DNA of 64,000 nt from Chiloscyllium plagiosum (GCF_004010195.1 NC_057749.1:9770728-9834727), one strand, 5' to 3'; positions 4,338 to 58,669 are shown, numbered from the stretch's first letter. The notes: a model not told the origin generated them from the sequence alone. Made by a program: numbers and translations.

Positions 4338-4462
4338 AAAGTGAGGACTGCAGATGCTGGAGATTAGAGCTTAAAAATGTGTTGCTGGAAAAGCGCAGCA
4401 GGTCAGGCAGCATCCAAGGAGAAGGAGAATCGACGTTTCGGGCATAAGCCCTTCTTCAGGAA
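4338..4462 (-). mobile_element. Penelope-like terminal fragment with 11-bp TSD
   Basis: TSD TGGCATTTGTG at 4327-4337 and 4463-4473; same family as 20935-21105 and 58575-58669; carries a hammerhead-like core at 4432-4459 (-). Confidence 0.8.
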
Positions 4463-5100
4463 TGGCATTTGTGGTCAACAAGGAGCTATGCCATTGAGAA
4501 GTAGGAGTATCCTTTTGAGATGCAAGAGTGTATTCCAGTAATGTTTGCGATTTCAGATCGGTGCATGAGAATTCTTCAAATCCCATGTTTGTTGAAGTAC
4601 TTTTTAAGTTCTTGACTGATGGTGTTCTTTGAGGAGGATTCTTTCTTGCAGGTGTCAGGAGGTTCAGTGTGTGCCAGCTTAGAAGCTCACTTGAGCTGTG
4701 ATGGTCTCAGCTTTCCAGAAATAATCCTCTTGACTTCCTGAGGATGGATGTAGAGGCTCTTGAACCAGAGTTGAACAGCAACACTGCCTTGTTGAATAGA
4801 CTAGAGTGAGGTATGTGTGTGATCTTGCTACCAAACAACCAGAAGAATGGAACACAAGTTCCTGGTTTGTAATGGAGGGGTGGTGTATTTTTTTCCTTTT
4901 CCACTTGTGTCAAGTGCGCTGTGACTAACTCTTTCAATACCTAAGGTTATGATCGTATACAGACATGAGATTGTATTTGTGTTTGTGATCACCTTTGAAC
5001 GTTTGGCATAGCGAGTCACTGTGCTTTGGAGAACCATTACATGACTTTTAAGAAACATTTCAGAGTGGTTAGATTCCCATTGCATTAATTTTGAGTAAAC

Positions 5101-5225
5101 CAAAGGGGATCACGACCTGAAACATGAGCCATGATTTTTCTTCATTGATGTTGCCTGATCTGAGTGTTTTGAGCATTTTTAAATTATTTAGGATCTCTAG
5201 TTTCCCCACTGTTTTGCTTTTTGCT
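5101..5225 (+). mobile_element. Decayed Penelope-like terminal fragment
   Basis: ...ACCTGAAACATG...GATGTTGCCTGATCTGAGTGTTTTGAGCATTTT resembles the tail of the other copies; the CTGA core is missing. Confidence 0.45.
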
Positions 5226-7289
5226 CAATGTGGAAGTTGGATTTCCAATCCTGTTGTTGAATTTTGTAAACGTGTACCACCAGTGCTTAGGATCTGGACA
5301 GCCAGTAGCTCAGAGGTTTGTTTCTCATTGTAAGTATTCATCATAAAAGTTAATGTATATTTTCACTTTCAAACTCTTCTACATTTCAATTGTTAAATTC
5401 TTGATCTTTTGTTGAATTTTGACTGTTAACAAATTTTAGGGCAAAATCATCGACTGTAGGTGAGCATTAAATATAGCTGTAAGTTAGGAATGATACTTTG
5501 GGAACTCATGACTACATGACCCAATCAGGTTTCTGGTAGTTACTGAGCATTTGGAATGCAGTGCATTGCAAATGGAATTTGTCCAAGGGCATTTCATGAT
5601 GGGTAGTGATTACTTTATACAGCTTATTTGAACTGTGATGCAATCTGCTATTTGACTTGGATGTGACATAAATTTTCCCCTCAAACTTGTTTTTTCCACA
5701 TGTGATTTAGTGATGTTGTAACTGGTTGAGTTGCTGAAACTGTTTTCTGTAGAATCCCTGAGTCCTGTTTGGTTGGGCTTGATAGGTGCTGTGTAAGCTG
5801 AGTTTAACAATTTGATTGAGATCTTTACAGCTTTTAACATAAAATCAACATGGGTATTTATTCTATCATCATATGTTCAAAACAGTATTTTAACTTTCTA
5901 CCCATGTCCAGTCATAGAAAATTCACCCTGTAGCATTATGTAATACAATTGGAAACTATGTTCAGAATGATTAAAGTCAGTCTGTAGGTGTGTGGGATGG
6001 ATTCCTTTGACAAGTAAACTAGGACAGTAACTCCACAAACTTGTACACCTACTGAGTCTGTATTTTACTTGTTTAATTTGCACTGAGCTGCAGTAAAATA
6101 TTAATGTGCAATGACTCTTTATAAATGTTAGCTGGAATTTAGTGAAGTTTCAGTACTGAAATTTCACTAAAGCCGATTTTTGATTGTTTGCATTCTTTTT
6201 AAAGAGACTGCTGGTACACATCTGTATTAATGTTATGCAAGTTGAAGCTGGAACTTTTTGCACAGCAATGTTTAAGGTTAGAACAGTGAATGGCATATTT
6301 CAGCATTGCCAATGTTGAGAGTTTGTCACTTCTGGCAGTCTCTGCACTGCTGCTGATTTTGTTTTTGCCAATTTCCTTCACTTGGCCTAAATAATATCTG
6401 GCCAGACTGTTTGGAAGCATGTTCTAATCTGAATCTTGTGTATGATGTGAAAGCAATTGAAAATGATTTGCATATGGTGCAATGTGAATGGCACTCCACT
6501 CCTTTATTTTCTCCACTCAGTTCCTGGCTTTGATCCTCCCATCACCCCAACAAATGAAGTATTTATCTTGTAGTATAAATTAATGTATAACTAAGATTAA
6601 ATGAAGAGGAGAGTTCAGGATTTTCATTGAGGACTCCATCAGTGCTGCTTTTGCATCTAGTTGAGTGCTCAAAGGTTTCAGTAACCTTTCAATTTTGGTC
6701 TATCTCTAGGCTTGCCCTTTGCTATAGTAGTATAACTGAAACAAGGAGCATCAAACTTTCAACTTTACACAAAACTTTTTTTTAATACAGGAGTAGCACT
6801 TTCTAGTAAGTGATGCCCAAATGTTCTGAAATACCTTTGCTTGACTTGAAATCAGATTGCGATAGTATATACTATGATCTAGAAAGACCAATGCTTCAGT
6901 CCTGGTTTCATACTGAGATAACTGACCATGAATGGTAGTGGTAAATTTAGCCTAATTTTTGAATTGATGGTGCAGAAGTGATTTGAAATTCTTGCTAGTT
7001 TACTCTCCATTGTCTTCTGTCATAAATGAACTGTGAAGTTGTAATTTTATACATGTTACACAGTTGCAAGTTTAATTTGAAGGAACTATGCAGAGAAAGT
7101 ACAAGTTTTTGCAATGTAGGAATTTTGGAACGTAGGACTTCAGGGCAGGGAGCCATTTGCCACTTTGAGTCTGGTTCCACATTCAATAAGAGAACTCCAT
7201 TTTGCTATCTACTTCTGAAGCTATTTGACTCCCTGTTTACCAAAATCTGTCCAAGTTGGCATTCAATGACCCTGTTTCCATTGGTTTCT

Positions 7290-9450
7290 GGGCAAGAGAA
7301 TTGCACATACTTGCAACCATCTGAGAGAGAAAAGAAATTCTCTTCCTCTCTGCTTTGAAAGATAGGTCTCCTATTTTTGGTGTCCTCCAAGAAAGGAAGC
7401 ACTATCCCCATATTCATCCGTTAAGTTCTCTCAGGATCTTGAATTTTCAATAAAATTATATCATTTTTCTAAACCCCAGTGATTATCGTGCCAACTTGCT
7501 CAATCTTTCTTATGATGGGGCCGCTGCCTTCTCTGGAATGAAGAATGAGTTGACTGAATCTCCTTTGAATTGCTTTTGTCACCATTACATCCTTTTCACA
7601 CAAGAAACCAAAACTGGTCTGGTAGGTCAGAATATTGGGCAGATTTAACCATATATTGGCTTGCCGAAGCCTTGTGTGGCTGTAGTAAAACGTTCTTACT
7701 TTAGTATTGCATTCCCCTTGCAATACACAATACCATTGCATTTGTTTTCCTAATTGTTTGCTGTACTTGCATGCCAACTTTGTGTATCAAGGCACCCGAG
7801 TCCCTCTGTGATGCCACATTCTGCAAACACTCTCCAGTTAAATAGTGTTCTACTCTTGCTGCCAAAGTGGGCAAGCTCACAATTTTCCATATTACCCTCT
7901 GTCAATGATTTCCTTATTCATTTAATCTACCTGCATGCTTTTGAAACCCTTTGCCTTCTCTCGACAGCTTACTCTCTTCCTCTATCTTGGTATTATTGAC
8001 AAATATAGTTATTCCTTCATCCAGGTTACGGGTGTAATTTGTAATTAATTGAGGCCTTGGAACTGACCATTTTACGAATTTCTTTCAACTCCTCATCATT
8101 CTCCTAATCCACTCAGATCTGTAGTTCTGAGAGATTCATTGTATCTTCTTTAATAAAAACAGACACAAATTAATCATTTAAGCTTCTCTGCCATTTCTCT
8201 ATTCCCCATTATAAAATTTCGTGACTCTGCATGTAATGAACTTCCATTCAGCTGAGCAAAATATTTCCTTTTTAGATTAGATTACTTAGTGTGGGAACAG
8301 GCCCTTCAGCCCAACAAGCCCACGCTGACCCTCCGAAGTGCAACCCACCCAGACCCATTCCCCTACACCTAACACTACGGGCAATTTAGCATGGCCAATT
8401 CACCTAGCCTGCACATCTTTGGACTGTGGGAGGAAACTGGAGCACCCGGAGGAAATCCACGCAGACACTGGGAGAACGTGCAAACTCCACGCAGACAATT
8501 GCCTGAGGTGGGAATTGAACCCAGGTCTCTGGTGCTGTGAGGCAGCAGTGCTAACCACTGTGCCACCATGAGTTTTTACAGTTTGTTTTAGCTTTTGTTT
8601 TGATAGGTTGCATTCATATTTAAATCTCCCTTTCCTGACCTGTTTGTTGGTTTTCCTTTGCTGTATTCCTAAAAGCCTCTCAATTATCAGATTTCCAATA
8701 ATTTCTGGCAACTTTGTCGGCCTTTTCAGGGTTGTACACGATTAAAAGAATTTCCCTTGTCAGCCATAGTTAACTGACTTGTGGGATTTTGCACCCTGAT
8801 TAGTTAGTGTAAACAATGTAGTAGGCAATGGATGGTCTTTGAAGAACTATGTAAAGTGGTGCCCTTTGTTGTATACTTCCCAATCCACTTCTACCAAGTT
8901 GTGATTTATACCATCATAACTTCCCTTATTCAAATATAACACCCTTGCTTAGGATTAACCTACCTCCCTGTCAAAAATAATGTAATATCTATCACATTGT
9001 GATGACTTGCTGCTAAATGTTCTTTTACAACAACAATATTAATTAGCCCTTGTTCATTACATAATACTCATCTGAAATAACTCCTGAATATGTGGTCATT
9101 ACTTTTATACTTAACCATAGATCCAAACTTTGCACGTTCAAACTGGAGTGTGACATTGTATATTGTTACATTGACTGTCGTGAAGAGGCTTTCTTCAATA
9201 AGATTTTTTGATTTAGTTCTGTCTCATTGCACATTGTCAGGTCTAGAATAGCCTACTCTCTGGCTAGCATGAAAACATAATATTCAAAGAATGTGTTGAA
9301 TAAACTCCATAAATCATTTTCCAGGTTGATTGTGATTTGCCCTGTCTCCATGTGGATTGAAGTTACCCATAATTATCACAATACCTTTTTTTTTACAGAT
9401 CCTATTAATTTCTGTCTATATACACCCTTCTAAACTTAAGCAAAATATTT
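7290..9450 (-). mobile_element. Old, internally deleted CR1 LINE (endonuclease to RT), interrupted by an HE1 SINE
   Basis: Minus-strand remnants: IIMG(N)FN-like APE motif near 9350-9385; IQQRKTNKQVRKG..YE.NL near 8600-8700; IMGNREMAEKL near 8180-8215; RT C-terminal peptides at 7469-7777. Confidence 0.75.
8272..8570 (-). mobile_element. HE1-type (V-SINE) shark SINE
   Basis: tRNA-derived head (TGGCACAGTGG A box, GGTTCAATTCC B box), V-domain-like core GTGGA(T)TTCCTCCGGGTGCTCC, (TAATC)n tail. Confidence 0.92.
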
Positions 9451-10919
9451 GTTGCACAAGTCTCTGTTTAGAGACCACAGTGACTGGTTTCCCAGCAACA
9501 CATTCTCTTTTATTTTACCCAGGCTAGATACACCATATAAATGTGAGTGTCAAAATGCATGTCAATATGTTACAGGAAATGCCCAACCCCTCTAACAATT
9601 GCACTTTTAGAAATCGCAAGTAATTTGTTAGCAATTATGCTGCCACTTGAACTAAGAAATATAATGACTATAATTAACTGGAATGTATCTTGTTTAATGT
9701 AGAAATTTGTCTAGCATTCTCCCAGTTATCTCAAATGTTTTAAACTGTGTTTTAGAGACTGCCTATTGTACCAACTTTTCTCTTGAAATATACAAGTCAA
9801 GGCATGAAATGTTTATTAAGGTCTTTTTGCGGGAGCGAAGCTATTGTGCAAGTATTTGAGGTTCAACGTGATTGGAAAGCGTGTTGAAAAAGCATTGTGG
9901 AGGTCACATTCTTAGCAAGCCTAAATATAGAGGCTTTATTGTGTATGAGTAAAGAAATTAGTTAAAAAAAACTATTTCCAATAATTTTGAGACAGAAACC
10001 AGGATGTAATCTTTTGCATTTAATGTATGTAATACTGTATAACAGTTAACTTGTGATTGCACAAGTAAATGAAAAGAATGGATTTTTGCGTTGAGCAACA
10101 ATTAGTTCAAATGCTAAAGTTATTTGTCGAATTGGTCTGTCTGTTGAAGCTTTAACATAGCAGTGGTTTTCAAGTTTTGCAGGTGAGGGAGACTTACCCT
10201 TCAGATATTGTCTCATGTAGATCCCAATTTATAAAGCATGTCCTCATTTCAGGAAATATTAAATATGTAGAAATGTGGATGCAAAGATATTTTAAAAATT
10301 ATTTGACATTGTGAAATATAAGTTTGGATATGGATGTTATCTTGTAGATTATTTAATTTAAAAATCTGGAATCAAAATTATGCCTTTTACTTCACTCTTG
10401 AGCAGTCAATTGCTAAAAAAGTTATTTTTGAGACTGAAATCTTGCTTTTGTGATTTTACAAATGCTTGGTTATTTAATGTGTTCCATGATGTTGAATCTG
10501 CAGAATTTGTCTGACCAAGGCAGCCATTATCTAAGCATTTCCTTTTCCACTTGTCTCCCTGACGGACTGTTCAATTGTAGTACATCAGCTCAGAGCTTCC
10601 AATCAGTATTGGAATTTTTGCATCTGATGCTGATCAGTCAGAAAACTTTTCATTTATGGTGACACTTAGAAGTGTCTGACTTGTGCGATAAAGTAGTCAG
10701 AAGAGTCACTCAGTGCTGAAACCCAGGGAGACTTTTGAAGAACGTCATTGCAGAAGCCATGCTCCCTTTTGCAGTTCATGCGACCGGAATTGATACTCCA
10801 GCAGGTACAAGTGTAGCCTACCCACCGTTTTCTCATATTTGCATCCTTCCCTAAATCAAATGTCCAGGAATGTGTATGGTACTTAAGATGCAGTCTCGTT
10901 AGTGCCTTGTAAAACTGTC

Positions 10920-11135: not shown

Positions 11136-12777
11136 GTATAGCTGAATCATAAGCATGATTCAAGGCTTTCATAATACTTGGGGTAGAAAGGGATAAAGGA
11201 AATGGTTCTTGAAGAATCTGGAGAAACTTGACTTGAGTAATGTGGAAGCAGTGTTCAGATAACCAGTCGTTTGTTCATTGCATTGCCCATGGTCAGTTGA
11301 TATACAAGATAACTTCATAAACTCACTACATTGAGCCATGTTACTAGAGCTTGCAGTTAAATCACAACTGTTGCAATTGCATCGATAATAGGAAATGTTA
11401 ATGTAAAATTGTGAGCAAAATGTTGAACAGGAAACTGGGTTGAGAAGAGGAAGTATATACACCAAATGAAAAACTGTTAGCATAAATTCTGTAACCTTAG
11501 TTCCCGTGTGCATGTTTTTGAAAATCTGAGTAACAGCTACTTTTGTGTTCATATATATCTCTTCCCATCTAAATAATGTAGCTTTTACAGACAATGGCCA
11601 AGGTACCAGCGTTGGCCAGTTGGCAGATAGTAAGATTGAGGGAAGAATGATATTGTCAGCTCATGAAATCTTTGGGATGGTTTGGAAGGCAAGCTGTGAT
11701 GTGCCAATGGATAAAAAGTAAATTGAAAGGAAGGATGAGGGCATTTAGGAGGACTGGAATAAGTGGCTGAGTTGGGTCAAAGAAGGAATGCCTGATCAGC
11801 CAGACCAAATATGAAATGATGAAATGGAGTCTTTGTGAGGGGGGTAGTTGGTCAAAGTTGGGACTGGAGCAATTCTCAAATCACTGAGGGTCAATTTTGT
11901 CAAATCAATGATGGAAAAGGGCAGCCTTTCAGTGTGATAAAACCTCTGGTAAAGTCCAATTTGGCCAACTCTGGTTAACCCAGAACTGTTGTGCTCAAGC
12001 ATTTTTAGTTTCAGTCTTTGTATAGGATGCTCTATGCCTAAGAGTACTGTGAAAAACTGATTCAGAGACTTTTAAAAAATGTTCAAGAATGAATGGAATT
12101 TTCCAATATTTTAATTTTTTAAAAACTCAAGAAAGAATTTGGATGCTTCAAAATAATTTAAATTTCAAATTTTGAGGAGTACTGGCTGCATGTATATACT
12201 GTCCATGGTGTCAAAGAATATTTGGTGATGTGTGGTTTCATGCAAATAAAGCAACTTTTGGTTATTATCTCTGGTAAGAAGAAAATGAAAGGCAGTCGGG
12301 ATTTTAGTTTCACGTTTGGGTACTGGCTGATTTGTAATGTTTTGGATATTTTAGATTGTGTGGCTGGTTGAGTTGTAAGAGTGATTTAATGTCAGTATGT
12401 TAAGACAGTACTGATGATATGGGCAATTATGGATGAGGGAATGTGCTGAATCTGGGTTGACGACTGCTTCTCAAAAGAAACTGCTGTTGGTTATTTTCAA
12501 TTTATGCAAAGTGTAGTGTAACAGGTATTGCGTGGCCCATTAGTGCTAAATTTTGCTTGTGGTATTGCATTGAATTGAAAAATGACATGACATAATCTGC
12601 AAAGTGATAGTGTCATTTTTAACAGGAATTGAGCTCGAAGCATGAAAACAGTGTTATACTAATGAATTGAAATTACAGGTTTTGGTGTCTTATATTGTTT
12701 GAAGTTTTTCTCCTATATTGATTTGGTTTTGGCATCAGAGTTATGCTTTTGAAGTTCACTAACATAGTCTACCAGGA

Positions 12778-13419
12778 TAAAAATCACACACCAGGTTAAA
12801 AGTATGCGTTTTCTGAGCATCGCTCCTTTGTCAGGTAGCTGGGTAGGGGTGGGGGGTGTGAGGGCTGGATACAAGATCAAAGTGCCATATAATTGATGCA
12901 ATTGCTGCTAAATCTTTAGTCACTGTGAATGGGGATGCAAGTTTCAATTGATTATTGTGTAAATCCCAGAACTGCTTTCAAGTCACAGACCTGAGATAAT
13001 TTAAGGTTTTATCAGATTATAAATGTGACATCTCAGCTCTGACAATGCATTAAAGGTGTGAGGTTAAGTCTGACTGTATCCTAACCTTGAGTCTGACTGG
13101 TTCTCTTTCCAAAGTAGGGATTTATAAAATGTCATATTGACTGCCTACAGATTTGTGTTTTTTGAACAAAATAGAATGTATCTGCAAATTCACCCCGTAG
13201 ACTGACTGACGTACGTGTGTGTGTGTATGAGAGAGAGAGAGAGAGAGAGAGAGTCTGTGATCTTGTACTATAAATTTTGAGTCCCATGATCCCGCCCCAC
13301 TAGCTTCCTGGTGAAGGTGTAGTGCTCCAAAAGCTTGTACTTTCAAATAAACTATGACCTGGTGTTGTGTGATTTTTAACTTTGTCCACCCCAGTCCAGC
13401 ACCGGCACCTCCACATCAT
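12778..13419. mobile_element. Penelope-like element remnant with inverted terminal arrangement
   Basis: Minus segment about 12778-13253 followed by a plus segment about 13254-13419; termini AAAATCACAC..ACCAGGT and ACCTGGTGTTGTGTGATTTT are inverted; same family as 41391-41559; both hammerhead-like cores are mutated. Confidence 0.75.
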
Positions 13420-13442
13420 AGCCGACTAGGCCATAGGGTAGC

Positions 13443-13584
13443 AGCAGAGGCAAACCACTATAAATGCCGGAGGAAACAACACAGAAGCGCTTCACAGGAG
13501 GCTCCCAAGCACTGAGGATGTCACCTAGACAGGGGACGAAACGTCTGCAACACAAATTCCCAGCTCAGCGAACAGAACCACAAC
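13443..13584 (+). mobile_element. Penelope-like terminal fragment of a second family
   Basis: TATAAAT (13459-65) followed by an intact hammerhead-like motif at 13509-13548; CpGs are retained, suggesting a young copy. Confidence 0.65.
13509..13548 (+). ncRNA. Minimal type I hammerhead ribozyme-like motif
   Basis: GCA-CUGAGGA-U-GUCACCU(AGAC)AGGGGAC-GAAA-CG-UC-UGC: stem I GCA/UGC, 6-of-7-bp stem II, palindromic ACGU at stem III, GUC triplet. Confidence 0.7.
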
Positions 13585-20480: not shown

Positions 20481-20934
20481 TTGTTGAATGGGTATCAAAT
20501 CACAGGGTACCAGATTTAGCTCGGGGTGAACTAAGTGAAATGCTGTATTATGAAGATATGAGGGGGGGAATGTAGAATTCAATATTTAATAGCTGTTTAC
20601 ATCAGAGGATTGTCAGTTATTGGTTTGAGTTGTTTGGATTCTCAAACCTAATTGCTTAATAGGTTAAAGTGGAATTCATATTCAACACAGCTGTATTCCT
20701 ATATCCCTCATAATGTTTTGAAGCCAGAAGGTGCTTCACAACAGCCTTATCAAGCAAGTAGAATTCTTAGAGTGTATTTGTTAGCACATTTTGTCTTGTG
20801 GCAAGAAGATTTGTAGTTTATTAGCAGCATTTCCACTTGAAATAATAAGGATTTAAGAATGACAGTGACTTCTACACAATCTGATATTACAAGAGATTAC
20901 AAGTTTCTATGGATGTTTCATCAATGTTAGGAAA

Positions 20935-21105
20935 AATTGAGGACTGCAGATGCTCAAGAGTCAGTCGAAAAGTGTGGCGCTGGAAAAGCACAACTGGTCA
21001 GGCAGCATCCGTCCTGATAAAGGGCTTATGCCCAAATGTCGAATCTGCTGCTCCTTGGATGCTGCCTGACCTGTTGTGCTTTTCCAGCACCATACTTTCG
21101 GATAC
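20935..21105. mobile_element. Penelope-like inverted terminal pair
   Basis: Arms 20967-21010 and 21057-21099 are inverted; between them is a decayed core CTGATAA-AGGGCTTATGCCC-AAATGTC; same family as 4338-4462. Confidence 0.78.
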
Positions 21106-24790: not shown

Positions 24791-25239
24791 CTAACTGGAA
24801 GCAGAGACATATGGCTGAATGTTTGCTTTGCCATGATGTCCTGCTTTGAAACTATCACATGCTTTATAGAATTCATATCTATAACCATGTCGGAGTTTGG
24901 GCAACATGCAAATCGCAGGTGAAGCTCAAGGTTTTTTATCGAAGTCACTCGTTTGAACATTTTTCTCTGCCATTTTCATTATAGAATTTGCTGAATTCAG
25001 ATTAGAGATTTCCCAAATGATAAGGAATAATTTCCTCATTTTTCGAGTATTGAAGTTTCACCGATTTCAGTTGGTTTGAAATGGACAGAAATTTTAATAT
25101 TTGATGTGATGGCTATTTTGTCAGCGTTATTGTTGATGGTTTTAGTGAAGAAAATACTGTTGTGCAGTCATAATGACCTTGAATTACTTGGCAAAATATA
25201 CATAGTTATTTTTATTTAGAAGTTAATGTTCAACCGATG

Positions 25240-26443
25240 TACAAGATTGGAGGCTAGCAAATGTTGTTCCCTTGTTCAAGAAGGGGAGTAGGGATAACCC
25301 TAGTAACTATAGGCCTGTGAGTCTCACTTCTGTTGTGGGCAAAATCTTAGAGAGAATTGTAAGGGATAGGATTTATGAACATCCGGATAGGAATAATGTG
25401 ATCAAGGATAGTCAGCATGGTTTTGTGAAGGGCAGGTCGTGCCTCACAAACCTTATTGAATTCTTTGAGAAGGTGACTAAGGAGGTGGACGAGGGGAAAG
25501 CAGTAGAGGTGGTGTATATGGATTGTAGTAAGGCGTTTGATAAGGTTCCCCATGGTAGACGACTGCAAAAAATACGGAGGTATGGCATGGAGGGTGAGTT
25601 GGAGGTTTGGATTAGGAGTTGGCTGGCTGGAAGAAGACAGAGGGTAGTAGTTGATGGCAAAGGTTCATCTTGGAGTGCAGTTACTAGCGGTGTTCCGCAA
25701 GGATCTGTTTTGGGACCATTGCTGTTTGTCATTTTTATAAATGACCTGGAAGAGGGGTTAGAAGGTTGGGTGAGAAAGTTTGCGGATGATACGAAAGTCG
25801 GAGGAGTTATTGACAGTGAGGAAGGATGTGGCAGGTTACAGCAGGATATAGAGAAGCTGCAGAGCTGGGCAGAAAGGTGGCAAATGGAATGCAATGTAGC
25901 TAAGTGTGAGGTGATTCACTTTGGGAAGAATAACAAAAAGATGGGGTACTGGGCTAATGGTCGGATACTTGGTAGTGTGGATGAGCAGAGGGATCTTGGT
26001 GTCCATGTACACAGATCTCTGAAAGTTCCCACCCAGGTAAATAGTGCGGTGAGGAAGGCATATGGCGTACTGGCTTTTATTGGTAGAGGAATTGAGTTCC
26101 GGACTCCTGAGGTCATGATGCAGTTGTATAAGACTCTGGTACGGCCACATCTGGAATATTGTGTGCAGTTTTGGTCGCCATACTATAGGAAGGATGTTTA
26201 AATTAAGGGGGGGGGTAGGTATAGGACAGATGTTAGGGGTAGATTCTTTACTCAGCGAGTCGTGAGTTCATGGAATGCCCTGCCAGTAGCAGTGGTGGAC
26301 TCTCCCTCATTATGGGCATTTAAGCGGGCATTGGATAGGCATATGGAGGATAGTGGGCTAGTGTAGGTTAGGTGGGCTTGGATCGGCGCAACATCGAGGG
26401 CCGAAGGGCCTGTACTGCGCTGTATTCTTCTATGTTCTATGTT
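25240..26443 (+). mobile_element. Young 5'-truncated CR1 LINE with open RT domain
   Basis: 309-aa ORF 25272..26201 with NYRPVSLTS, QHGF..GRSCLTNL, SKAFDKV, GVPQGSVLGP, KFADDTK; ends in a CR1 3' UTR and (TTCTATG)n tail. Confidence 0.97.
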
Positions 26444-26804: not shown

Positions 26805-26915
26805 ACATAATGAAAACAAGTACTGTGAATCACAACAGGTCAGGTAGCATCCATGGAGAGCGAACAAGCTAATATTTCGAATTTGATGACTCTTCATCAG
26901 AGCTGAAGCGAAGTG
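26805..26915 (-). mobile_element. Penelope-like terminal fragment (another family) with hammerhead-like core
   Basis: On -: AGCU-CUGAUGA-A-GAGU(CAUCAA)AUUC-GAAA-UA-UU-AGCU, then the GGATGCTACCTGACCTG tail shared with 4338-4462. Confidence 0.7.
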
Positions 26916-39907: not shown

Positions 39908-41390
39908 ATAAAGAGTACTGGACATAATTGTTTGCTATAGGATTATTTTGACACCCATTAATTGGCCTTGGCTTGTCCTACGAACTGTATTTAATGTTTG
40001 CCAGGAAGACACTTTTTTAAAAAAATAGAGGCAAAACACATTTAGTTAGTGTTGAAAGTATCCAAACTTTTCAGATAATTGTGCAACCCAGTCATTTTGC
40101 AATATATTCAGATTTTTTGGACTATAGCATAGGCCAGGTGACCATATCCTACTTTTCATACTTGGTTTTTACATCTGATTTGAGTATACTTGGGGAAAAA
40201 TTCATGTAGTCTATTATTTTGATTTTAGGATATTTTGTTTTGGAAATTGTATATTACTTTTAAAAGCGTGGTTGTGATGTGCCTGAATTGAGAATTGATT
40301 TATGCCATTGTAAATGGATGTGGACTGAAGTGCTTAGGTTGGATTAGAAGGTATATGTTTGCAACATGCAACTGTAAGTTAGTATTTTTACAAATATATA
40401 AAGATTGGCTCCAGTTCTGCCCTCACCAGTTGGCTTTCTGGAATACTCACGCCTTGTGGGACTGCCTTTTCTCAGAACATTAATTAGATTTTTAAATAAG
40501 ATTGTTGTGTCACTTGAAAAGAAAAAAATGAATGAATTGAAATTGGTATATCACGTGCTGTTTATTTCCTAAACAGACTGCTACAATTTCTTCCCCAGTT
40601 AAAAGGATGTTCCTTGCTTGTTTTTAGGTTTCAGGGGAGGCCCTCCATTTTAGGTATCTACTCTGATCATGGGTACTGTAGCTTGGACCAATATTCTTCT
40701 CTACTTGGTAATTAATTAGCTGTAAAGCACTTTGAGAAACTCCGAGCACACACTGTGCTGCTACAGCAATATAAATTATACGAGGATTGGCTCCAGTCTT
40801 ATCCTAGGGCTACATTATTCTTGAAAGATGACTCCTGACTGAGTATTCAGGCAGTAAAGGCAAGTCCTTGTTGTCGAGGTTTGAATTGGCACCCACTTTG
40901 TAAGTTAAATTTTCCATGTAGAATAACAAAGCTGTTTCAAGATGCATGCGGGACATTCTGTAACTCGGAAAAGTTATTGCCTCTCATTATGGAGTGCCTT
41001 CTTCCATTCAAACACCCGACTGTGCTTCACGCTATGAATTTTAGTGATATACAACAATGCCCTGTGGGGGCAATATTTCTCAGAGCCATAGATGATGTGG
41101 CTGGCCAGTTAATTTATTTGATAGTACAGTATTTGTCCAATGTTCTTTGTTATCTTGGGAAGGCTTATAGTAGTTTTCCACTTGAATTTCGTCAGGCAAG
41201 AAATGTTTCTTTCAAAAGGTAAAAGGTGGTCTACTTAGACTGTTTTGACATTCTTTTGCCTGTGCATTGTTGCTAGGTTTAGATTCTTTAGTAGTATTTG
41301 CTCCTTTGTGGGTTTGATTTCAGGAAAACTGTTACATTGTCGTCCCATTTCCTTATCCCCGCATCAGTTGAAGCAAACACTCAAAGAAGC

Positions 41391-41559
41391 TAAAAATCAC
41401 ACAACACCAGGTTATAGTCCAACACTGATTGTCACCTGATGAAGGAGCGTCGCTCCGAAAGCTAGTGTGCTTCCAATTAAACCTGTTGGACTATAACCTG
41501 GTGTTGTGTGATTTTTAACTTTGTACACCCCAGTCCAACACCGGCATCTCCGAATCATG
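41391..41559 (+). mobile_element. Young 169-bp Penelope-like insertion with inverted terminus and 12-bp TSD
   Basis: TSD ACTCAAAGAAGC at 41379-41390 and 41560-41571; perfect 34-bp inverted repeat at 41391-41424 and 41484-41517, plus a 42-nt 3' extension. Confidence 0.88.
41433..41467 (+). ncRNA. Minimal type I hammerhead ribozyme-like motif
   Basis: CAC-CUGAUGA-A-GGAGC(GUC)GCUCC-GAAA-GC-UA-GUG: stem I CAC/GUG, 5-bp stem II, palindromic AGCU, CUA triplet. Confidence 0.7.
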
Positions 41560-42089
41560 ACTCAAAGAAGCAGTATGGCTCTACCTTTTTTACCTTTATT
41601 CCAAGCCATGGAGACAGAGCGACCACCCATGCGCACAAAGATATGAGTTCTCGATCTTCTCTCGAGTAGCAGATTCTCAAGGAATCATATAGTCACTTAC
41701 AGGGAGCAGCGTCCAAATAAGGCAACATCCAGCAAGCATCAACAGTAAAGATTAAGCCATCTGGCATTACGCAATGGATGTTCTTTACCTCTGTTAAACT
41801 ACTACCTTTACCTCTAACACCTCATTGTTTATTGCAAGCTCTTATCTGGTCAGTCATTTTAGCTGAGCCTTTGTTAAGCAACCCTAAACTTAACTCTTTC
41901 CCTACCTGCTCGTACCTTATACCCATTCTCAACATAATTACATATGTTTGGGTGTAATACTAAATAATTTTGCCACATTTCACTGTATATTTAAAGACTC
42001 ATTGATTTGTTACTGTCTTTTTAATGCAAAGTACATGGATTTAGTTATTCAACTCTGATTATTACTGTCATTGAGATTCCATTCATGAA

Positions 42090-52416: not shown

Positions 52417-52608
52417 AGTAAAGTTGCCATAGTTCTAGAGGACCATGGTGTGCTGCTCTGTCATTAGAGAGGCAGCTATTGGTGGTGTGACAGAGGGTCA
52501 CCACGCCTCAGGTGAGGTTGAGAAGGACCTCAGTTGGTATGAGAATTGAATCCACGCTATTGACATCACTCTGCATCATAAACAAGTTGTCCAGCTAACT
52601 GACACTTA
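52417..52608 (-). mobile_element. tRNA-derived SINE with 12-bp TSD in a CSK intron
   Basis: TSD GTAATTTGAATA at 52405-52416 and 52609-52620; B-box-like GGATTCAATTC on -; related to 10920-11135. Confidence 0.75.
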
Positions 52609-53436
52609 GTAATTTGAATATGAGGATATTGAAAGGCATCTGTGTAACAAAATCATAAAGGCCTGTAGCACTTCTTGGAAAATAGATTGAATGTGGTTCA
52701 TTGTTGGCTATTTTTCTATCCTATTTTAGCAATTTATATTGTATTGTCTATTCTTTTTGTATGTTATCTTGCTATTCGACTTCCTACTCCAGTAGTTACT
52801 GTCTTCATTCCTGAATCAGTTCGTATACAAAGATTGAACAAATCACATTGTGTTCGACATTACAATGATTCAGCCATTTTAGGAAACATTGAGTACACAT
52901 TTGGAGCTTAAATTTTGATTTTGTAAAAGGGCAAGTTATATAGAATGATTGGACATTCAGCAGTCAGCATGTGGCAATTTTTGAGCTAGCTGTTTGAATG
53001 AATATTTCAGGCTTCACTGAATTAAAGTAGAACAATTAAATTGATTTTGACTTCTGTTCGAAAGCTCAGAGTTCAAAACAGATGGCGTTTAATTTGTAAT
53101 GCATCTACTGAAACATATCCATGAACTTGTCATTAATTTACATGCCCTCCTGAAAATGAGTGGGACATGTCTAGTTGCAAAATTACAATGACAAGTTACA
53201 TTTTCAAATTGGCGTGACAAAATCATTAACCGTTGTCATAACTATTATGGAAATTCAAAGTTTGAGATCTTACAAATTAATAATAGCAAGAAAAAGCAAT
53301 TTCATCATAATATCTATGTTTACTATATAATATTTTTCAAAACAACCTTTAAAGCAGATTTATTTATGTATTTCATAAAGAAATTTGAAACATTAAAATC
53401 CTAATTTGTTGTGATAAATGTCCTTTTCCTTTGCAG

Positions 53437-53550
53437 ACAATATGGGCATCCGGCACAGAATGTATAGCCAAATACAACTTCAGTGGAAGTGCAGAACAAG
53501 ACCTTCCCTTTAACAAAGGAGATGTTCTCACCATTATTTCAGTCACTAAG
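53437..53550 (+). CDS. CSK: CSK exon, SH3 N-terminal half
   Basis: TTTTCCTTTGCAG acceptor; [47 protein letters not shown] donor; 114 nt, phase 0/0. Confidence 0.97.
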
Positions 53551-54193
53551 GTAATAATATTTGTTTAAGTCCACGTAGAAACAGCATGAAGTGACATTCT
53601 ACAAGATTTGTTCAATCACTAAAATATTTTTGTCATAGGAAGTGTGCTCACACATTGCAATATTATATGTTTTAATAAATTAAGTAATGTAAATCTTAGC
53701 ATAAAATGTCTGCTTTATTAACTACATTGTGCACATTGCCCTTCATGAACCACTTTCCATAAAAGATGTGCAGGAAAGATCTGAGGAGCAGCTAATTGTG
53801 TCATGCATGATTTACCATCCAAAACCATTTCTAACTATTTGGCTCATATGCAGTAGTCATATCCATTTTCTTTTCTCCAAACATAATAAGAAATTGTGAC
53901 CACCTTATGCTCAAAAACAAACTGCAGTACTATTACTGCTTCATTTGATCCTAAGCTGATTTATGTCAGCATCCATATTGTTTTATTAAAATTATCTGCT
54001 CATTTCTTGGAAGAATAATATGCAAGTTTGATTTTTAATACTTAATGCAAAAAGTGTTTGTGATGCAAGGCTTTAAGGAAAGAGCAAGCAGTAGTATGCA
54101 CTTTGTAAAAATTACACTTGGTATTCACTTTTGTGTTTGTCACTGTGCACCTCTTAGTTGCTTTACCTTTTACTTCTGCCTTGCCAATTTTAG

Positions 54194-54306
54194 GATCCAA
54201 ATTGGTACAAAGCAAAGAGCAAAATTGGTAAAGAAGGTATCATTCCTGCAAACTATGTCCAGAAAAGAGAAGGAGTCAAATCTGGTGCAAAGCTTAGCCT
54301 TATGCC
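54194..54306 (+). CDS. CSK: CSK exon, SH3 C-terminal half and SH3-SH2 linker
   Basis: TTTTAG acceptor; [37 protein letters not shown](P); CC|GTAAGT donor; 113 nt, phase 0/2. Confidence 0.97.
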
Positions 54307-55046
54307 GTAAGTATGTGCTTTGGTTTAATAGCCACAGACCATAGAAAACACAAATGCTATATGCAAACGACACAGTTACTGTTACTATTATAGGCCTCCA
54401 AAATTTGGAACAAAGAAACAAGGGAGAATTCTCACCAAATGTTACAGGAAGTGCTTAAATATAAGATTTTAATTTGGGGACTTCCTGTGGCCTGACTAAT
54501 TCAAGTGCACTCCATTAATTGATTATGCCAGAGCTGTTGTATTCAGTTGTGTTGGTCTTGATTTCGGTGTTTTGTTTTTAAAATACATTATTTGGACACA
54601 GCAGTAGAAATTTGTATGGATCTTGTCTAGATATAAAACAGTTGAAGTGTGTACCAATTTCTTGATGTGCACTGCAGCATGAATATCTGTCTTCTTTTCT
54701 GCCCTCCAACCTTATGCTACTAAATCTTGTATATGAAGTAGCTTAATATTGATGCAGATTGATGGTGCAATAGGACTGACAATAAGACTAATTTGCTTGG
54801 TGCTGGAGAGCGACCAAGACGCAATCTGTATCAAGGCAGTTGATCTTCCTTGTCTTCAGCTTTGTGTTTGCTGATGGACTACTGCAGCTTTTCTGCCAAT
54901 GATTGTTTGGCTGTCCCGACTGTTCCTGTGATTCACTTGCAGAAATTGCAATTCTAATTTATCAGCCTATTAACTCGAATGGAAGTGAGTGCAACCACTG
55001 AGTACTAGAAAAATAAGTAGCTGTTATAACAGCTTTTCATTACACA

Positions 55047-55212
55047 AGTCATAGAGATGTACAGCATGGAAACAGACCCTTCGGTCCAACTCGTCCATGC
55101 TGACCAGATATCCTAATCTGATGTAATCCCGTTTGCCAGCACTTGGCCCATATCCCTCAAAACCCTTCCTATTCATATACCCATCCAGATGCCTTTTAAA
55201 TGCTGTAATTGT
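55047..55212 (-). mobile_element. CR1 3' UTR fragment
   Basis: AGTCATAGAGATGTACAGCATGGAAACAGACCCTTCGGTCCAAC..., the reverse complement of 31001-31183. Confidence 0.9.
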
Positions 55213-57334
55213 TCTCTTATTGATTATTATTTATTTGCAGACGTTTTCTCAGCATGATGAAGATTTAATGGAGCATGATGTAGAGTGCTTTTAAGGTTAT
55301 AGTTCAGATTCACCCCTTAATGGTCATTTAATCTTACTTTGGGATAAAAGAAAACTGATTCACTACCCAGCCAGGTTGTGGAAGAAATCTCAAGGGGAAA
55401 GAAGGTTTGAGATAATCTTGGGAAAATTTGTTAAATGAGTGGTTCAACTGAGTATTGACAATGTTGCCCTGGTCATCCATCTATTATTCTCCTCTTGTCA
55501 GAAGGACAGTCAGAATTGATTTTGTGAAAGGGTTGCTATTGTTTTCATTCAGCCAGCTTTTAAGAGACCAAATTGAACCATTAAGCTGATAAGTATACCA
55601 TAAAACTAATTACTAGGCTGCAGGGCCAGATTCTTTCTGTTGTAATAGCTGCTTTGAGCGAGATGTTGCAATTGATTTTTCTGGCATTTGCCTAGAACAA
55701 ACTACATTTGAAGGGGAAAACATGATATCTTTTGCTTGTCTTGTGCCAGTTTTTAATGGATAAAATCCCCAATCCACGTGCTCTCTGATAATATGATATC
55801 TTATCCAAAGATCTTCCATCAACTCTCTTGTTCTAGTAGATAATTTGAGAACAAAGTGATATAAACGCATGAGTTTCTTTCATTTGGAGAGGAATAATTG
55901 GTCAGTGTTTTTTGAAACACAAAGCCTTTATTTTAAAAATATAGATCCCATATCAGTTTTAAACAGTGCTTACTGGACTGAGACTTTCAGGAAAGGGAAA
56001 TTCCTCATACATATTCCTTAATGAGGGAACAAACCTTACCTAATTTTAAAGTTACATTCCTTCCTCCCTTTGCGAAAGACATTAAAGTTGAAAACAGTGC
56101 AATGTTCTTAATCAGGGTCACAAAAGAAATTTGTATTTGGCATGTGCCCATTGCTGGCAGTAATTCTGTGCATTTTTAATGACGTTACCCTTTTGCAAAT
56201 TTCGATTTTGACAGCAGCTGAACTTCAGTTATTATTTCGTTTGCCAATGCGAAGAATTATTTCCTTTCTCACTGTCTGCCAATGTGTACTAAAGAATTGA
56301 ATATGTCAAATAATATGGAGGAAACTGTTCTTTTGAAACTAGTGCCACAAAATGCAACAAATGAAATATTCTGAATATAGTTTCCAAACTGCTGTTGGCA
56401 GTTATAGACCCTTGAGGATCATTTACAAAGGAATGTATCCCTTTTAAATATTCATTGGTCTTATCATGCCAAGTGTCTCCTGATATTTCATTTGATGCTA
56501 GGTACGTTAGTTGGTATAGAGTTTTGTTCCTTGCAAACTTTGACTGCCCAGATGAATACTGGATTAGCCAAATGCTATGTTTACTGAGGTAAGCGGAGGT
56601 AGCAATTGTTATGAGTAGAAACTAGGTGCTTTTGTGACGAGGAGACTGTAGAGTCACATGAGTATTGACTGTGGTTCAGTTAAGCAGCTTTATTTAGTCT
56701 GGAATAATTGTCAGAGAGGACTATTGAACCACAGGTAAGGCTGAGGGGTTTGAGGCAGTGGCTGAAAACATGGCTTTTATTTTCCAAAATTTTTGATTGG
56801 ATAGTGGCCCATCCAGTCCTGGAAGCTGAGAAAGGAGTTTGACAACACAATTTAATAGAAACGTCATGCTAGATCATTAAGAGCTTATCTGTATCTTGTC
56901 AGTCGATATCTGGAATTTACTCTTGTGAGATAATGTTACTGAGAATGTTAGCTTGTGAATGAGAAAAGGTAGGGAACCAGAATTTGAAAGATGGTGTTTG
57001 GACTTCGAGTGCTAATGCGGAAATAGTTGGAAAAACCAATGATTTGTCCTCTGGCTCCAGTTAGCAAGGCAAATATGATACACAGAAGAGGAAATTGAGG
57101 TGCATTGCTGGTTGTTCCAAAGACAGCACAGGATTGAAGAAAGTCATAGTCCAAAAGAGTACAATATGAGACTCTGGTTAGGGATTTTTAGTGTCATTGC
57201 AAGCATTGTTTTCGTGATTTAAATATGGAGTCCATGAGAATTTGCCAAATTGATATTTATTAAGGGTCCTTGGAGAGGTTTAGTGGGTGGGAGTATTAGT
57301 TTGCAAGGATTGCAAAGTTAAAGATGTTTAATGA

Positions 57335-57447
57335 TAAATGCAGGGTTGCTGGGATAAGCTGTGGCAGGGGTGGGATGCTATTTGGAGGGTAGGTGCAGAC
57401 TCGATGGGCCAAATGGCCTCTATCTGTACCGTAAGGATTCTATGATG
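57335..57447 (+). mobile_element. HE1/CR1-type 3' tail fragment
   Basis: GGGTGGGATGCT..TTGGAGGGT.GGTGCAGACTCGATGGGCCAAATGGCCT...GTAAGGATTCTATG, similar to the end of 39618-39907. Confidence 0.7.
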
Positions 57448-58059
57448 AGGTTTAAGGGGCAATATAGTGGACGTGAAAAAGAAGTATGTTATTTGATAAA
57501 TCATTCTTGAATTTCTAGAAAATGTAATTGTGGATTTTTGTGTCTTGACTATCTTATAACAGACTACAAAACTAGGGTAACAATTTGTTATAAAAGTATC
57601 AGTCACCCTATATTTTGCTGCTCAGAAATTATAAGACAACAGCACATGAGCTTAATAACCTGAAACTATTTAAATTACAGAAAGTTAAAAATTGGAGAAA
57701 TAGTCTATCTGATCGTTTGGAGCCAGCTTGTGTATGACAAAATAGAATAGTAATGGCTTGACCCCTCCCAGGTTGACACAGCAACACAAATATTGAGTTG
57801 TTGCATCAAGGGATTGTATGGATAAACTAGGAAAGGGAATGAGCATGTAAAACGGTACATTAAACCGATCATTTGGTGACTTCATAACTTGAGCGCTCGA
57901 GGATAAAATCAAGGAAGGGTGATGTGGTTTCATCCTCACCCTCTGTCCAGATAGTTTGTGATGAAGTACATATGGTTCGAAATACCCTGCAATGAAAATA
58001 TTCTGATTTTGTGCTTTATTTTCATATTGCTTTCTGATTTATGCTGTTATTTGTTGCAG

Positions 58060-58279
58060 CTGGTTTCATGGAAAAATTACTCGTGAGCAAGCAGAAAGGC
58101 TACTGTATCCTCCTGAAGATGGTTTATATTTGGTACGGGAAAGTACCAACTATCCTGGGGACTATACACTGTGTGTGAGCTGTAGTGGGAAGGTGGAACA
58201 TTACAGAATCATTTATTCTTCCAGCAAACTTAGCATCGATGAAGAAGCCTACTTTGATAATTTGATGCAATTAGTAGAG
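58060..58279 (+). CDS. CSK: CSK exon, SH2 domain
   Basis: TTGTTGCAG acceptor; (P)[82 protein letters not shown] donor; 220 nt, phase 2/0. Confidence 0.98.
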
Positions 58280-58574
58280 GTCAGTTTGATTTTAATTTTA
58301 TATTTTGTTTTAAACACCTTGCTCTCTGGGCCTAGAGTGCTTTTCATTATCACCTCAGTGGATTGTTATTGGATTACAGGGGCAATTTGTAAAATGTATC
58401 TGTAATATTTGTTATTTAACCATTATTATAGAATCAAAATTTGAGTCTGCTATGGTCAGATTAGAAGAACAGAGGTAATGCAGAGAGTTTCTCTTGCATA
58501 TAATGATACTCTTTTTCCTAACTATTTTGAAGCATTGTTCTGGTTATATACAAACCGTTTCAGACCCACTGCCA

Positions 58575-58669
58575 GTTTCCTGAAGAAGGGCTCATGCCCG
58601 AAACATCAATTCTCCTGCTCCTTGGATGCTGTCTGACCTGCTGCGCTTTTCCAGCAACACGTTTTCAGC
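58575..58669 (+). mobile_element. Penelope-like terminal fragment with 15-bp TSD
   Basis: TSD TCAGAC(C/T)CACTGCCA at 58560-58574 and 58670-58684; core CTGAAGA-A-GGGC(TCAT)GCCC-GAAA-CA-TC with CG changed to CA. Confidence 0.8.

What the first reader, a model, noticed from the sequence alone, without database searches (positions are those of the whole stretch)
4432..58610. Minimal hammerhead-ribozyme-like cores in at least four different Penelope-like families, with co-varying stems
Seen: one layout, stemI-CUGANGA-(extra A/U)-stemII-GAAA-NN-UH-stemI', recurs with different arm sequences. 4432-4459(-): stem II GGGC/GCCC, ACGU, GUC. 13509-13548(+): stem I GCA/UGC, stem II GUC.CCU/AGG.GAC, ACGU, GUC. 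26867-26904(-): stem I AGCU/AGCU, stem II GAGU/AUUC, AUAU, AUU. 41433-41467(+): stem I CAC/GUG, stem II GGAGC/GCUCC, AGCU, CUA. Decayed copies lie at about 12805-12836(-), 13305-13336(+), 21011-21042(+) and 58579-58610(+). The core is fixed, stems I and II change compensatorily, and stem III is always a 4-nt palindrome (ACGU, AGCU, AUAU). Established: Penelope-like elements carry minimal type I hammerheads reported to cleave mainly as dimers through a palindromic stem III. Inference: shark genomes hold very many such motifs, here with an extra base between A9 and stem II; I do not know whether these shark families have been characterised.
Basis: partly seen in the sequence, partly recalled or inferred. 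Interest (0 to 1): 0.78.

Follow-up and report, generated by a model that had tools for sequence, protein, structure and literature searches.

The report
Penelope-type minimal hammerheads in shark repeats
The motifs are real minimal hammerhead-ribozyme sequences sitting near the tail ends of broken Penelope-like jumping genes, a kind of element already described in other animals, here amplified to a very high copy number.

Summary
A relaxed minimal-hammerhead descriptor finds exactly the four reported motifs in the window (4430-4461-, 13509-13548+, 26867-26904-, 41433-41467+), against a mean of 0.04 hits in 200 dinucleotide shuffles. The four decayed copies are also there.

Each motif lies in a 5'-truncated retroelement insertion with target-site duplications, an inverted partner arm or an optional tail of about 35 nt. 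These are the published signatures of Penelope-like elements (PLEs).

- Family C runs from a GIY-YIG endonuclease reading frame straight into the hammerhead.
- Long family A copies carry a GIY-YIG-like frame upstream.
- Family B looks like a discrete non-coding unit of about 330 nt.
- Family D is an old relative of A. Its "AUAU" stem III is decayed ACGU.

The unpaired base after A9, the G10.1-C11.1 pair, the palindromic stem III and the co-varying families were all reported by Cervera and de la Pena in 2014. This is therefore a new member of a known kind.

New here is the scale: about 230,000 intact cores in this genome against about 2,000 for the reversed control. Short family A copies also start 2-5 nt upstream of the core and pair head to head. 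Cleavage was not tested. This scan reached the same verdict earlier on other DNA of this genome.

The parts
4337..4463 (-). Family A PLE 3' fragment (127 nt) with tail, flanked by a 9-bp target-site duplication (GGCATTTGT at 4328-4336 and 4464-4472). The element begins 4 nt upstream of the hammerhead core.
   Evidence: (94% to a family A reference over 128 nt)
4430..4461 (-). Intact-looking minimal hammerhead, family A: CUGAAGA, unpaired A, stem II GGGC/GCCC, GAAA, ACGU, site GUC.
   Evidence: the 29-mer (up to 2 mismatches) occurs 134,508 times in the genome, reversed control 0
12775..12840 (-). Decayed family B fragment; hammerhead remnant at 12805-12836 (CUGACAA, damaged GAAA region); B-type 3' end (aacctggtgtgtgattttta).
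   Evidence: read by eye; below the blastn threshold
13268..13418 (+). Decayed family B copy (74% to reference); hammerhead remnant at 13305-13336 (CUGGUGA ... AAAAGCUU). It forms an inverted 5'-to-5' pair with the 12.8 kb copy.
13437..13584 (+). Family C PLE 3' fragment (148 nt, 93% to reference), 5'-truncated 72 nt upstream of the hammerhead, without tail, lying next to the B copy.
13509..13548 (+). Intact-looking minimal hammerhead, family C: stem I GCA/UGC, CUGAGGA, unpaired U, 7-position stem II with an A.G mismatch, ACGU, GUC. In long copies the endonuclease frame ends at the TAG in the stem II loop.
   Evidence: the 37-mer (up to 3 mismatches) occurs 20,924 times, control 0
20929..21092 (.). 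Family A hairpin insertion: inverted arm 20929-21010(-) joined to arm 21012-21092(+), which starts 2 nt upstream of a decayed hammerhead (21011-21042; CUGAUAA, GAAA box damaged).
   Evidence: the long hairpin also gave the weak chance-level Rfam mir-1791 match
26812..26906 (-). Family D fragment (old relative of A). Hammerhead at 26867-26904 with stem I AGCU/AGCU, stem II GAGU/AUUC, and stem III AUAU derived from ACGU by CpG decay. The left boundary is approximate.
41391..41559 (.). Family B hairpin insertion: inverted arm 41387-41424(-), short filler, forward arm 41432-41557(+) (99% to reference) with tail. It is flanked by a 12-bp target-site duplication (ACTCAAAGAAGC at 41379-41390 and 41560-41571).
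41433..41467 (+). Intact-looking minimal hammerhead, family B: stem I CAC/GUG, CUGAUGA, unpaired A, stem II GGAGC/GCUCC, AGCU, site CUA.
   Evidence: the 29-mer (up to 2 mismatches) occurs 28,020 times, control 0
58575..58673 (+). Family A copy (91% to reference) starting 5 nt upstream of the core, flanked by an imperfect 14-bp duplication. The hammerhead at 58579-58610 has an intact core but ACGU>ACAU.

Best explanation
These are minimal type I hammerhead ribozyme motifs (min-HHRs) of Penelope-like retrotransposons. Each lies about 60-70 nt from the element's 3' end, or about 95-110 nt when the optional tail is present.

Every copy in this window is a dead by-product of retrotransposition: a 5'-truncated 3' end, often joined head to head with a second truncated copy.

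The following steps are inferred from published work on other PLEs and are not shown here. In the active source elements the motif is transcribed as part of the element RNA. Because stem III is only the A15.1-U16.1 pair around a 2-nt palindrome, one motif cannot fold alone. Two motifs pair through ACGU or AGCU to make a shared 4-bp helix III. Each then cleaves 3' of H17 (GUC or CUA), probably slowly and with help from the element's protein.

Selection on source copies keeps the 11 core bases, the G10.1-C11.1 pair, the unpaired base after A9 and the pairing of stems I and II. The stem sequences themselves drift, which gives the covariation seen between families.
For: Chance is excluded.
- The window has 4 descriptor hits against a mean of 0.04 in 200 shuffles.
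- Genome-wide, the core-only pattern gives 230,350 matches against 1,952 for the reversed control.
- Family motifs occur 134,508 (A), 28,020 (B) and 20,924 (C) times, each with a reversed control of 0.

The same design occurs in unrelated lineages.
- References for A, B and C share no similarity beyond core words. All three pairwise comparisons give best blastn E of 0.024 or higher.
- All nevertheless place the cleavage site 94-110 nt from the tail end.
- All carry the unpaired base (10 of 10 representatives).

The stems stay paired while their sequences change. In 10 representatives, stem II positions 10.1-10.4 are paired in 39 of 40 cells, with 2-6 pair types per position. Stem I positions 1-3 are paired in 26 of 30 cells. 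Lineages that are homologous by their flanks show two-sided changes:
- A GGGC/GCCC versus D GAGU/ACUC;
- C stem I GCA/UGC versus E UCA/UGA.

The elements are Penelope-like. I saw target-site duplications, 5' truncation, inverted partners and an optional tail. Family C has a GIY-YIG endonuclease C-terminus, and its homologues have an RT plus GIY-YIG architecture. Family A has a GIY-YIG-like frame.

The features match the published description of PLE min-HHRs point by point (PMC4209133, main text).
Against: - No Rfam hammerhead model matches any of the motifs, even at E up to 10 on 101-nt stretches.
- No cleavage evidence was obtained. The only raw RNA reads available (poly(A) single-cell libraries) show no pile-up of ends at the predicted sites, which is no test.
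- The reverse-transcriptase part of the elements could not be seen, because those stretches read N.
- Pfam GIY-YIG scores are below the curated cut-off: 14.7 and 17.7 bits against 22.6.
- Eight of the 10 representatives in the pairing table were found with a descriptor or pattern that already demands some pairing, so the table leans towards the structure.
- Published PLE hammerheads cleave poorly in vitro, and catalytic mutants did not affect insertion in vitro (PMC4209133; PMC11167929 passages). Self-cleavage as the selected function is therefore itself unproven.
- In family A, tandem (same-strand) neighbours that could form a cis dimer are rare: 22 head-to-tail junctions against 7,898 head-to-head sites.
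Confidence: 0.8

Rival explanations
1. The motif is conserved in these elements for a job other than self-cleavage. It could be a folded or dimerising RNA signal that the element's protein recognises, or one that marks where reverse transcription ends. Cleavage would then be incidental or vestigial.
For: - Even the shortest mobilised copies keep the whole motif, and they start just upstream of it. Of 12 family A loci taken without regard to their flanks, 4 begin 2-5 nt upstream of the core, 6 have an inverted junction at or next to the motif, and 2 run on further.
- There are 7,898 head-to-head A sites with 30 nt or less between the two cores. Of the first 50 listed, 30 have spacers of 10 nt or less.
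- Literature passages: hammerhead catalytic mutants did not change insertion in vitro; no RNA-seq reads ended at the cleavage site in Anolis; cleavage needed the protein.
- Cervera 2014 reports low in vitro activity.
Against: - The bases kept across unrelated families are exactly the catalytic ones (C3-A9, G12-A14, U16.1, H17). That is hard to explain by a purely structural role.
- Family C shows no 5'-end cluster at the motif: 0 of 12 loci.
- The 5'-end cluster could have other causes, such as a short non-autonomous RNA.
Confidence: 0.25
2. Some of the carriers, family B and the short form of A/D, are not truncated autonomous PLEs. They would be separate short non-autonomous elements (retrozyme- or SINE-like) that borrow PLE enzymes and share only the 3' module with the hammerhead.
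For: - Family B: 4 of 4 copies fetched for their upstream part share one 5' boundary about 225-230 nt upstream of the motif, giving a unit of about 320-360 nt with no reading frame seen.
- Family A short copies have a sharp 5' end at -2 to -5.
[quoted passage not shown] It reports them in the one chondrichthyan it sampled, with a mean consensus length of 363 bp.
Against: - Retrozymes are defined by tandem arrays, but head-to-tail A junctions number only 22.
- Other B copies start at varied points.
- In one B locus a withheld stretch lies directly upstream of the B copy (L077), so an autonomous B partner cannot be excluded.
Confidence: 0.3
3. The motifs are chance look-alikes multiplied by repeat amplification, with no ribozyme ancestry.
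For: - Rfam models do not recognise them.
- Copy number alone reflects transposition, not selection.
Against: - Three lineages without flank similarity share the full core, the unpaired base, G10.1-C11.1, a palindromic stem III and the same distance to the 3' end.
- Shuffles give 0.04 hits per 64 kb.
Confidence: 0.02

Closest known systems
Minimal hammerheads (min-HHR) in the terminal repeats of metazoan Penelope-like elements (Cervera and de la Pena 2014, PMC4209133; dimer cleavage in Lunse, Weinberg and Breaker 2017, which I could not read, and know only from a review, PMC6765202)
   Same: - Type I layout and the same core.
- One unpaired base between A9 and G10.1, and a G10.1-C11.1 pair.
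- No real helix III; a palindromic 15.2-16.2.
- Short helix I, with helix II of 4-7 bp.
- Many sequence families per genome with compensatory changes.
- Most copies are single motifs in truncated elements, and pairs on opposite strands are common.
   Different: - The host group: the main text and the 2 searchable supplement files name no cartilaginous fish.
- The scale: about 230,000 intact cores here, against about 9,000 in Xenopus and about 4,000 in coelacanth in that paper.
- In family C the endonuclease frame ends inside stem II.
Poseidon PLE of Anolis carolinensis (PAc; Frangieh et al. 2024, PMC11167929, passages read)
   Same: - An EN+ PLE with a hammerhead.
- An optional 30-40 nt tail explained by two internal start sites of reverse transcription.
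- Both target strands are cut and extended, which fits the head-to-head insertions seen here.
   Different: - In PAc the reading frame starts in stem II of the hammerhead. In family C here the frame ends in stem II, and in family A the frame ends about 300 nt upstream.
- No biochemistry exists for the shark elements.
Animal non-LTR retrozymes (de la Pena et al. 2020, PMC7229834, search listing only; Li et al. 2026 preprint, abstract and passages)
   Same: Short non-coding units with a type I hammerhead, thought to be mobilised by PLE enzymes. Family B (about 330 nt) is of similar size.
   Different: Retrozymes carry canonical hammerheads with loop-loop contacts, sit in tandem arrays and give circular RNAs. 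Here the motifs are minimal, and head-to-tail junctions are rare (22 for family A).

Membership tests
PLE minimal hammerhead (min-HHR, Cervera and de la Pena 2014) | Catalytic boxes CUGANGA and GAAA, followed by U16.1 and H17 | tested here: met
   4 of 4 intact motifs. The 4 decayed copies each have 1-3 core changes or a broken stem III.
PLE minimal hammerhead (min-HHR, Cervera and de la Pena 2014) | One unpaired nucleotide between A9 and 10.1 | tested here: met
   4 of 4 in the window. 10 of 10 representatives: 9 A and 1 U.
PLE minimal hammerhead (min-HHR, Cervera and de la Pena 2014) | G10.1-C11.1 closing pair; helix II longer than helix I | tested here: met
   10.1-11.1 is G-C in 7 of 10 representatives and G-U in 3. 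Stem II is 4-7 bp against stem I of 2-4 bp.
PLE minimal hammerhead (min-HHR, Cervera and de la Pena 2014) | Helix III reduced to A15.1-U16.1 around a palindromic 15.2-16.2 | tested here: met
   ACGU in A and C; AGCU in B. D's AUAU is palindromic only by decay of ACGU.
PLE minimal hammerhead (min-HHR, Cervera and de la Pena 2014) | Self-cleavage, mainly as a dimer | not testable with these tools
   RNA reads gave no test. Cofold predicts stable dimers, but the minimum-energy dimer is not the hammerhead dimer.
Penelope-like elements with endonuclease (EN+ PLE) | Single ORF with a reverse transcriptase followed by a C-terminal GIY-YIG endonuclease | tested here: inconclusive
   Endonuclease part:
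- Family C fragment P0002 is 57% identical to the C-terminus of proteins with RVT_1 plus GIY-YIG.
- Pfam GIY-YIG is the only hit but scores below the cut-off, in C (E 0.04) and in A (E 0.0044).

RT part: not seen in this genome, because the stretches read N.

B and D: no ORF seen.
Penelope-like elements with endonuclease (EN+ PLE) | Insertion anatomy: strong 5' truncation, an adjacent inverted 5'-truncated copy, an optional 30-40 nt tail at one end, and target-site duplications | tested here: met
   Families A, B and C in loci. Window insertions at 4337-4463, 20929-21092, 41391-41559 and 58575-58673.
Rfam hammerhead families (type I, II, III, HH9, HH10; names recalled) | Match to the family covariance model | tested here: not met
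   No hammerhead match at gathering scores, at E up to 10 on the whole window, or on 101-nt stretches around B and C. This is expected for motifs without helix III.
Animal non-LTR retrozymes | Head-to-tail tandem arrays of short hammerhead units | tested here: not met
   Family A: 22 tail-to-core junctions within 12 nt, against 7,898 head-to-head sites. Not counted for B or C.

The most novel reading that the evidence does not exclude
In these shark PLE families the hammerhead may mark the 5' limit of the smallest unit that can be retrotransposed. The template RNA, or the point where reverse transcription stops, would lie 2-6 nt upstream of C3. Two such cDNAs, primed from the two cut target strands, would meet there and give the thousands of head-to-head pairs.

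On this reading the palindromic stem III serves to hold two template RNAs together at the integration complex, and cleavage is secondary.
Probability: 0.12. Interest if true: 0.6.

Novelty: new member of a known kind. Interest (0 to 1): 0.25.

Why it matters
Mostly this is a sound annotation. It adds cartilaginous-fish families to a ribozyme class known since 2014, and it shows that the class can reach about 230,000 intact cores in one vertebrate genome.

Such numbers matter for anyone scanning genomes for ribozymes or hairpin RNAs. In this window the long inverted pairs mimic microRNA precursors in weak Rfam matches.

The sharp 5' ends at the motif, and the 7,898 to 22 excess of head-to-head over head-to-tail pairs, are a cheap and testable handle on how PLEs integrate and on what their hammerheads are for. 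Both questions are still open in the literature.

Tried and rejected
- **Rfam.** There was no hammerhead hit at any threshold. The listed weak hits (mir-1791, mir-305 and others) are chance matches to the inverted repeats.
- **Pfam GIY-YIG search of the genome.** It was unhelpful: 150 of 14,403 candidates were scored and 1 weak hit came back.
- **Long 'open frames'.** The frames of 704 and 887 aa next to family C motifs are artefacts of N runs. I did not pursue the hidden stretches.
- **The window's own RT frame.** The frame at 25227-26201(+) hits RVT_1. By recalled motifs it is LINE-like (FADD box) and lies on the other strand, so it is unrelated to motif D.
- **RNA evidence.** No RNA holder was listed for the stretch searched. 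Laying two raw poly(A) single-cell runs, one 'RNA?' contig run and one DNA-like contig run showed reads over the A and C copies on both strands in one raw run. It showed none in the other, and no places where molecules begin or end. This is no test of cleavage.
- **Rolling-circle or tandem model for short A units.** Only 22 tail-to-core junctions were found.
- **Dimer folding.** Dimers are favoured over two monomers for all four motifs, but the minimum-energy dimers are not the hammerhead dimer.
- **Covariance model.** I did not build one. MAFFT misaligned families with different stem II lengths, so pair counts were made with my own parser. R-scape was not run.
- **Papers.**
  - Lunse et al. 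2017 is not held.
  - Only one paper holds 'hammerhead ribozyme', 'shark' and 'Penelope' together, and there 'shark' refers to the shape of the fold.
  - The 2 searchable supplement files of Cervera 2014 name no cartilaginous fish; file 1 could not be searched.
Full report
**1. The observation**

My own descriptor required CUGANGA, 0-1 unpaired base, stem II closed next to GAAA, N-N-U-H and then stem I.

- In its relaxed form it returns exactly four hits in the 64-kb window on both strands, at 4430-4461(-), 13509-13548(+), 26867-26904(-) and 41433-41467(+). Each has one unpaired base after A9.
- 200 dinucleotide-preserving shuffles gave a mean of 0.04 hits (maximum 2). The reversed window gave none.
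- The strict form (stem I at least 3 bp, stem II at least 4 bp, palindromic 15.2-16.2) keeps B and D, against 0 in all shuffles.

The four 'decayed' sites are true relatives with one to three damaging changes. No Rfam hammerhead model reports any of them, even at E up to 10 on 101-nt stretches. That is expected for motifs with no helix III.

**2. What carries the motifs**

The window's genome (3.56 Gb) could be searched. The motif strings are highly repeated, with a reversed-pattern control of 0 in every case:

| Family | Matches | Mismatches allowed |
|---|---|---|
| A | 134,508 | up to 2 |
| B | 28,020 | up to 2 |
| C | 20,924 | up to 3 |
| D | 9 | up to 3 |

A core-only pattern (CTGANGANG, 6-28 free bases, CGAAANNTH) matches 230,350 times, against 1,952 for the reversed control.

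Flanks of sampled loci show one anatomy in A, B and C:
- The motif lies near the 3' end.
- Copies are cut off at varied 5' points.
- A second 5'-truncated copy often lies head to head.
- Short target-site duplications flank the whole insertion.
- An extra tail of about 35 nt is present at one end only.

Craig et al. 2021 and Frangieh et al. 2024 (passages) describe exactly these features for Penelope-like elements.

In the window:
- The A insertion 4337-4463 has a 9-bp duplication.
- The B hairpin 41391-41559 has a 12-bp duplication.
- The A copy 58575-58673 has an imperfect 14-bp duplication.

**3. Coding evidence**

*Family C.* The frame upstream of the motif reads as the end of a GIY-YIG endonuclease and stops at the TAG in the stem II loop.
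- 137 of the 150 scored genome matches to its last 79 residues have no stop, by my count.
- A visible 380-residue remnant (P0002) is 57% identical (E 2e-69) to residues 520-697 of a 705-residue protein that carries RVT_1 and then GIY-YIG.
- All 7 proteins returned have RT-type or GIY-YIG-type Pfam domains precomputed.
- Pfam on the shark fragment itself gives GIY-YIG as the only hit, but below the cut-off (E 0.04).

*Family A.* Two visible decayed long copies align over 561 nt. One carries a GIY-YIG-like frame about 300 nt upstream of the motif.
- Pfam gives E 0.0044, below the cut-off.
- tblastn to the RT plus GIY-YIG proteins gives E from 2e-4 to 3e-3.

The stretches that should hold the reverse transcriptase read N in every long copy I fetched. 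The RT was therefore not seen, and I did not pursue it.

*Family B.* It showed no frame, and 4 of 4 copies share one 5' boundary about 225-230 nt upstream of the motif. It may be a non-autonomous unit.

*Family D.* It is an old relative of A; the tails are 73% identical over 73 nt.

**4. Covariation**

A, B and C references share nothing beyond core words. Yet the cleavage site lies 94-110 nt from the tail end in all of them.

In ten representatives (four from the window, six from loci):
- Stem II positions 10.1-10.4 pair in 39 of 40 cells, with several pair types per position.
- Stem I positions 1-3 pair in 26 of 30 cells.

Lineages linked by flank homology show two-sided changes: A GGGC/GCCC against D GAGU/ACUC, and C stem I GCA/UGC against E UCA/UGA.

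The caveat is that most representatives were found with tools that already demand some pairing.

Among the first 100 core-pattern matches, the abundant A subfamilies differ at N7 and in loop II. The six stem bases left free by the pattern stay GGGC/GCCC (read by eye).

The 'AUAU' of D is not a third palindrome type. Its relatives read ACAU. In the same 100 matches I counted 66 ACGU, 25 with a single CpG transition, 1 AUAU, 6 AGCU and 2 other.

**5. Comparison with what is known**

Cervera and de la Pena 2014 (main text read) list as hallmarks of PLE minimal hammerheads:
- families full of compensatory changes;
- the G10.1-C11.1 pair;
- palindromic 15.2-16.2.

They also note pairs of motifs 100-700 bp apart on opposite strands.

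That paper names bony fishes, coelacanth, Xenopus and reptiles, but no cartilaginous fish in the main text or in the two supplement files I could search. PLEs as such are reported in whale shark and elephant shark (passages). A 2026 preprint found non-LTR retrozymes in the one chondrichthyan it sampled.

Earlier notes of this scan on the same genome, and on another shark genome, reached the same verdict.

**6. Mechanism**

*Shown here:* sequence design, genomic anatomy and copy number.

*Inferred from the literature:* dimer formation through the stem III palindrome and cleavage 3' of H17, with low intrinsic activity and possible help from the element's protein.

The window's copies are relics. 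Several are inverted pairs whose transcripts would fold into long hairpins rather than hammerheads.

**7. Seen beyond the finding**

Short family A copies have a sharp 5' limit.
- Of 12 loci taken without regard to their flanks, 4 begin 2-5 nt upstream of the core, 6 are joined to an inverted arm at or next to the motif, and 2 run on.
- The three A copies in the window begin at -4, -2 and -5.
- Genome-wide there are 7,898 head-to-head sites with 30 nt or less between the two cores. Of the first 50 listed, 30 have spacers of 10 nt or less. Only 22 tail-to-core junctions were found.
- Family C shows no such cluster at the motif: 0 of 12 loci.

This fits the published finding that a PLE protein cuts and extends both target strands. 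It also suggests that either a short template RNA starts just upstream of the hammerhead or reverse transcription tends to stop there. I could not tell which.

**8. Verdict**

This is a correct catch of a known kind, with new family members in a cartilaginous fish at an unusually high copy number. Cleavage is untested.

Noticed in passing
Family C loci, e.g. L022:1278-1520; window 13509-13530: The endonuclease reading frame of family C runs into the hammerhead and ends at the TAG in the stem II loop, so the core box CUGAGGA is also coding (Thr-Glu-Asp). In the Anolis element the frame instead starts in stem II (literature passage).
   Followed up: partly
Genome-wide; window 4463, 21012, 58575: Short family A copies begin 2-5 nt upstream of the hammerhead core. 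There are 7,898 head-to-head sites against 22 head-to-tail junctions. The cause is unknown.
   Followed up: partly
Family C loci L022, L023, L029, L031, L033: 5 of 12 family C copies start within about 25 nt of one point, about 265-290 nt upstream of the motif and inside the endonuclease coding part. This may be a second preferred 5' end.
   Followed up: no
window 8272-8570: Another repeat, unrelated to the hammerhead families, has the highest read and contig depth of the 10-kb stretch laid (tables 2 and 7). It was not identified.
   Followed up: no
window 25227-26201 (+): A 324-residue open frame with a reverse-transcriptase domain (RVT_1, E 1.4e-37). By recalled motifs it is LINE-like, not Penelope-like.
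   Followed up: partly
window 58007-58405 (+): An open frame with an SH2 domain (E 6.3e-24), probably an exon of a host gene. A family A copy lies about 170 nt downstream.
   Followed up: no
G000 contig C1, 0.24-12.2 Mb: Of the first 100 exact family A motifs listed, 82 are on the + strand and 18 on the - strand (my count). The genome totals are equal (67,314 against 67,194). This is a local strand bias without explanation.
   Followed up: no
window 20989-21077 and 41408-41500: The inverted PLE arms form long hairpins that draw weak, chance-level Rfam microRNA matches (mir-1791 E 1.1; mir-305 E 4.2). This is a likely source of false microRNA calls in this genome.
   Followed up: no
L048, L063-L066, L070-L072, L077: Runs of N (23 to 2,450 bases) lie upstream of hammerhead motifs: about 100-300 nt upstream of family A and C motifs in L063, L065 and L070-L072, and further upstream of a family B copy in L077. 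They made false 'open frames' of 351-887 residues in the genome search table.
   Followed up: no
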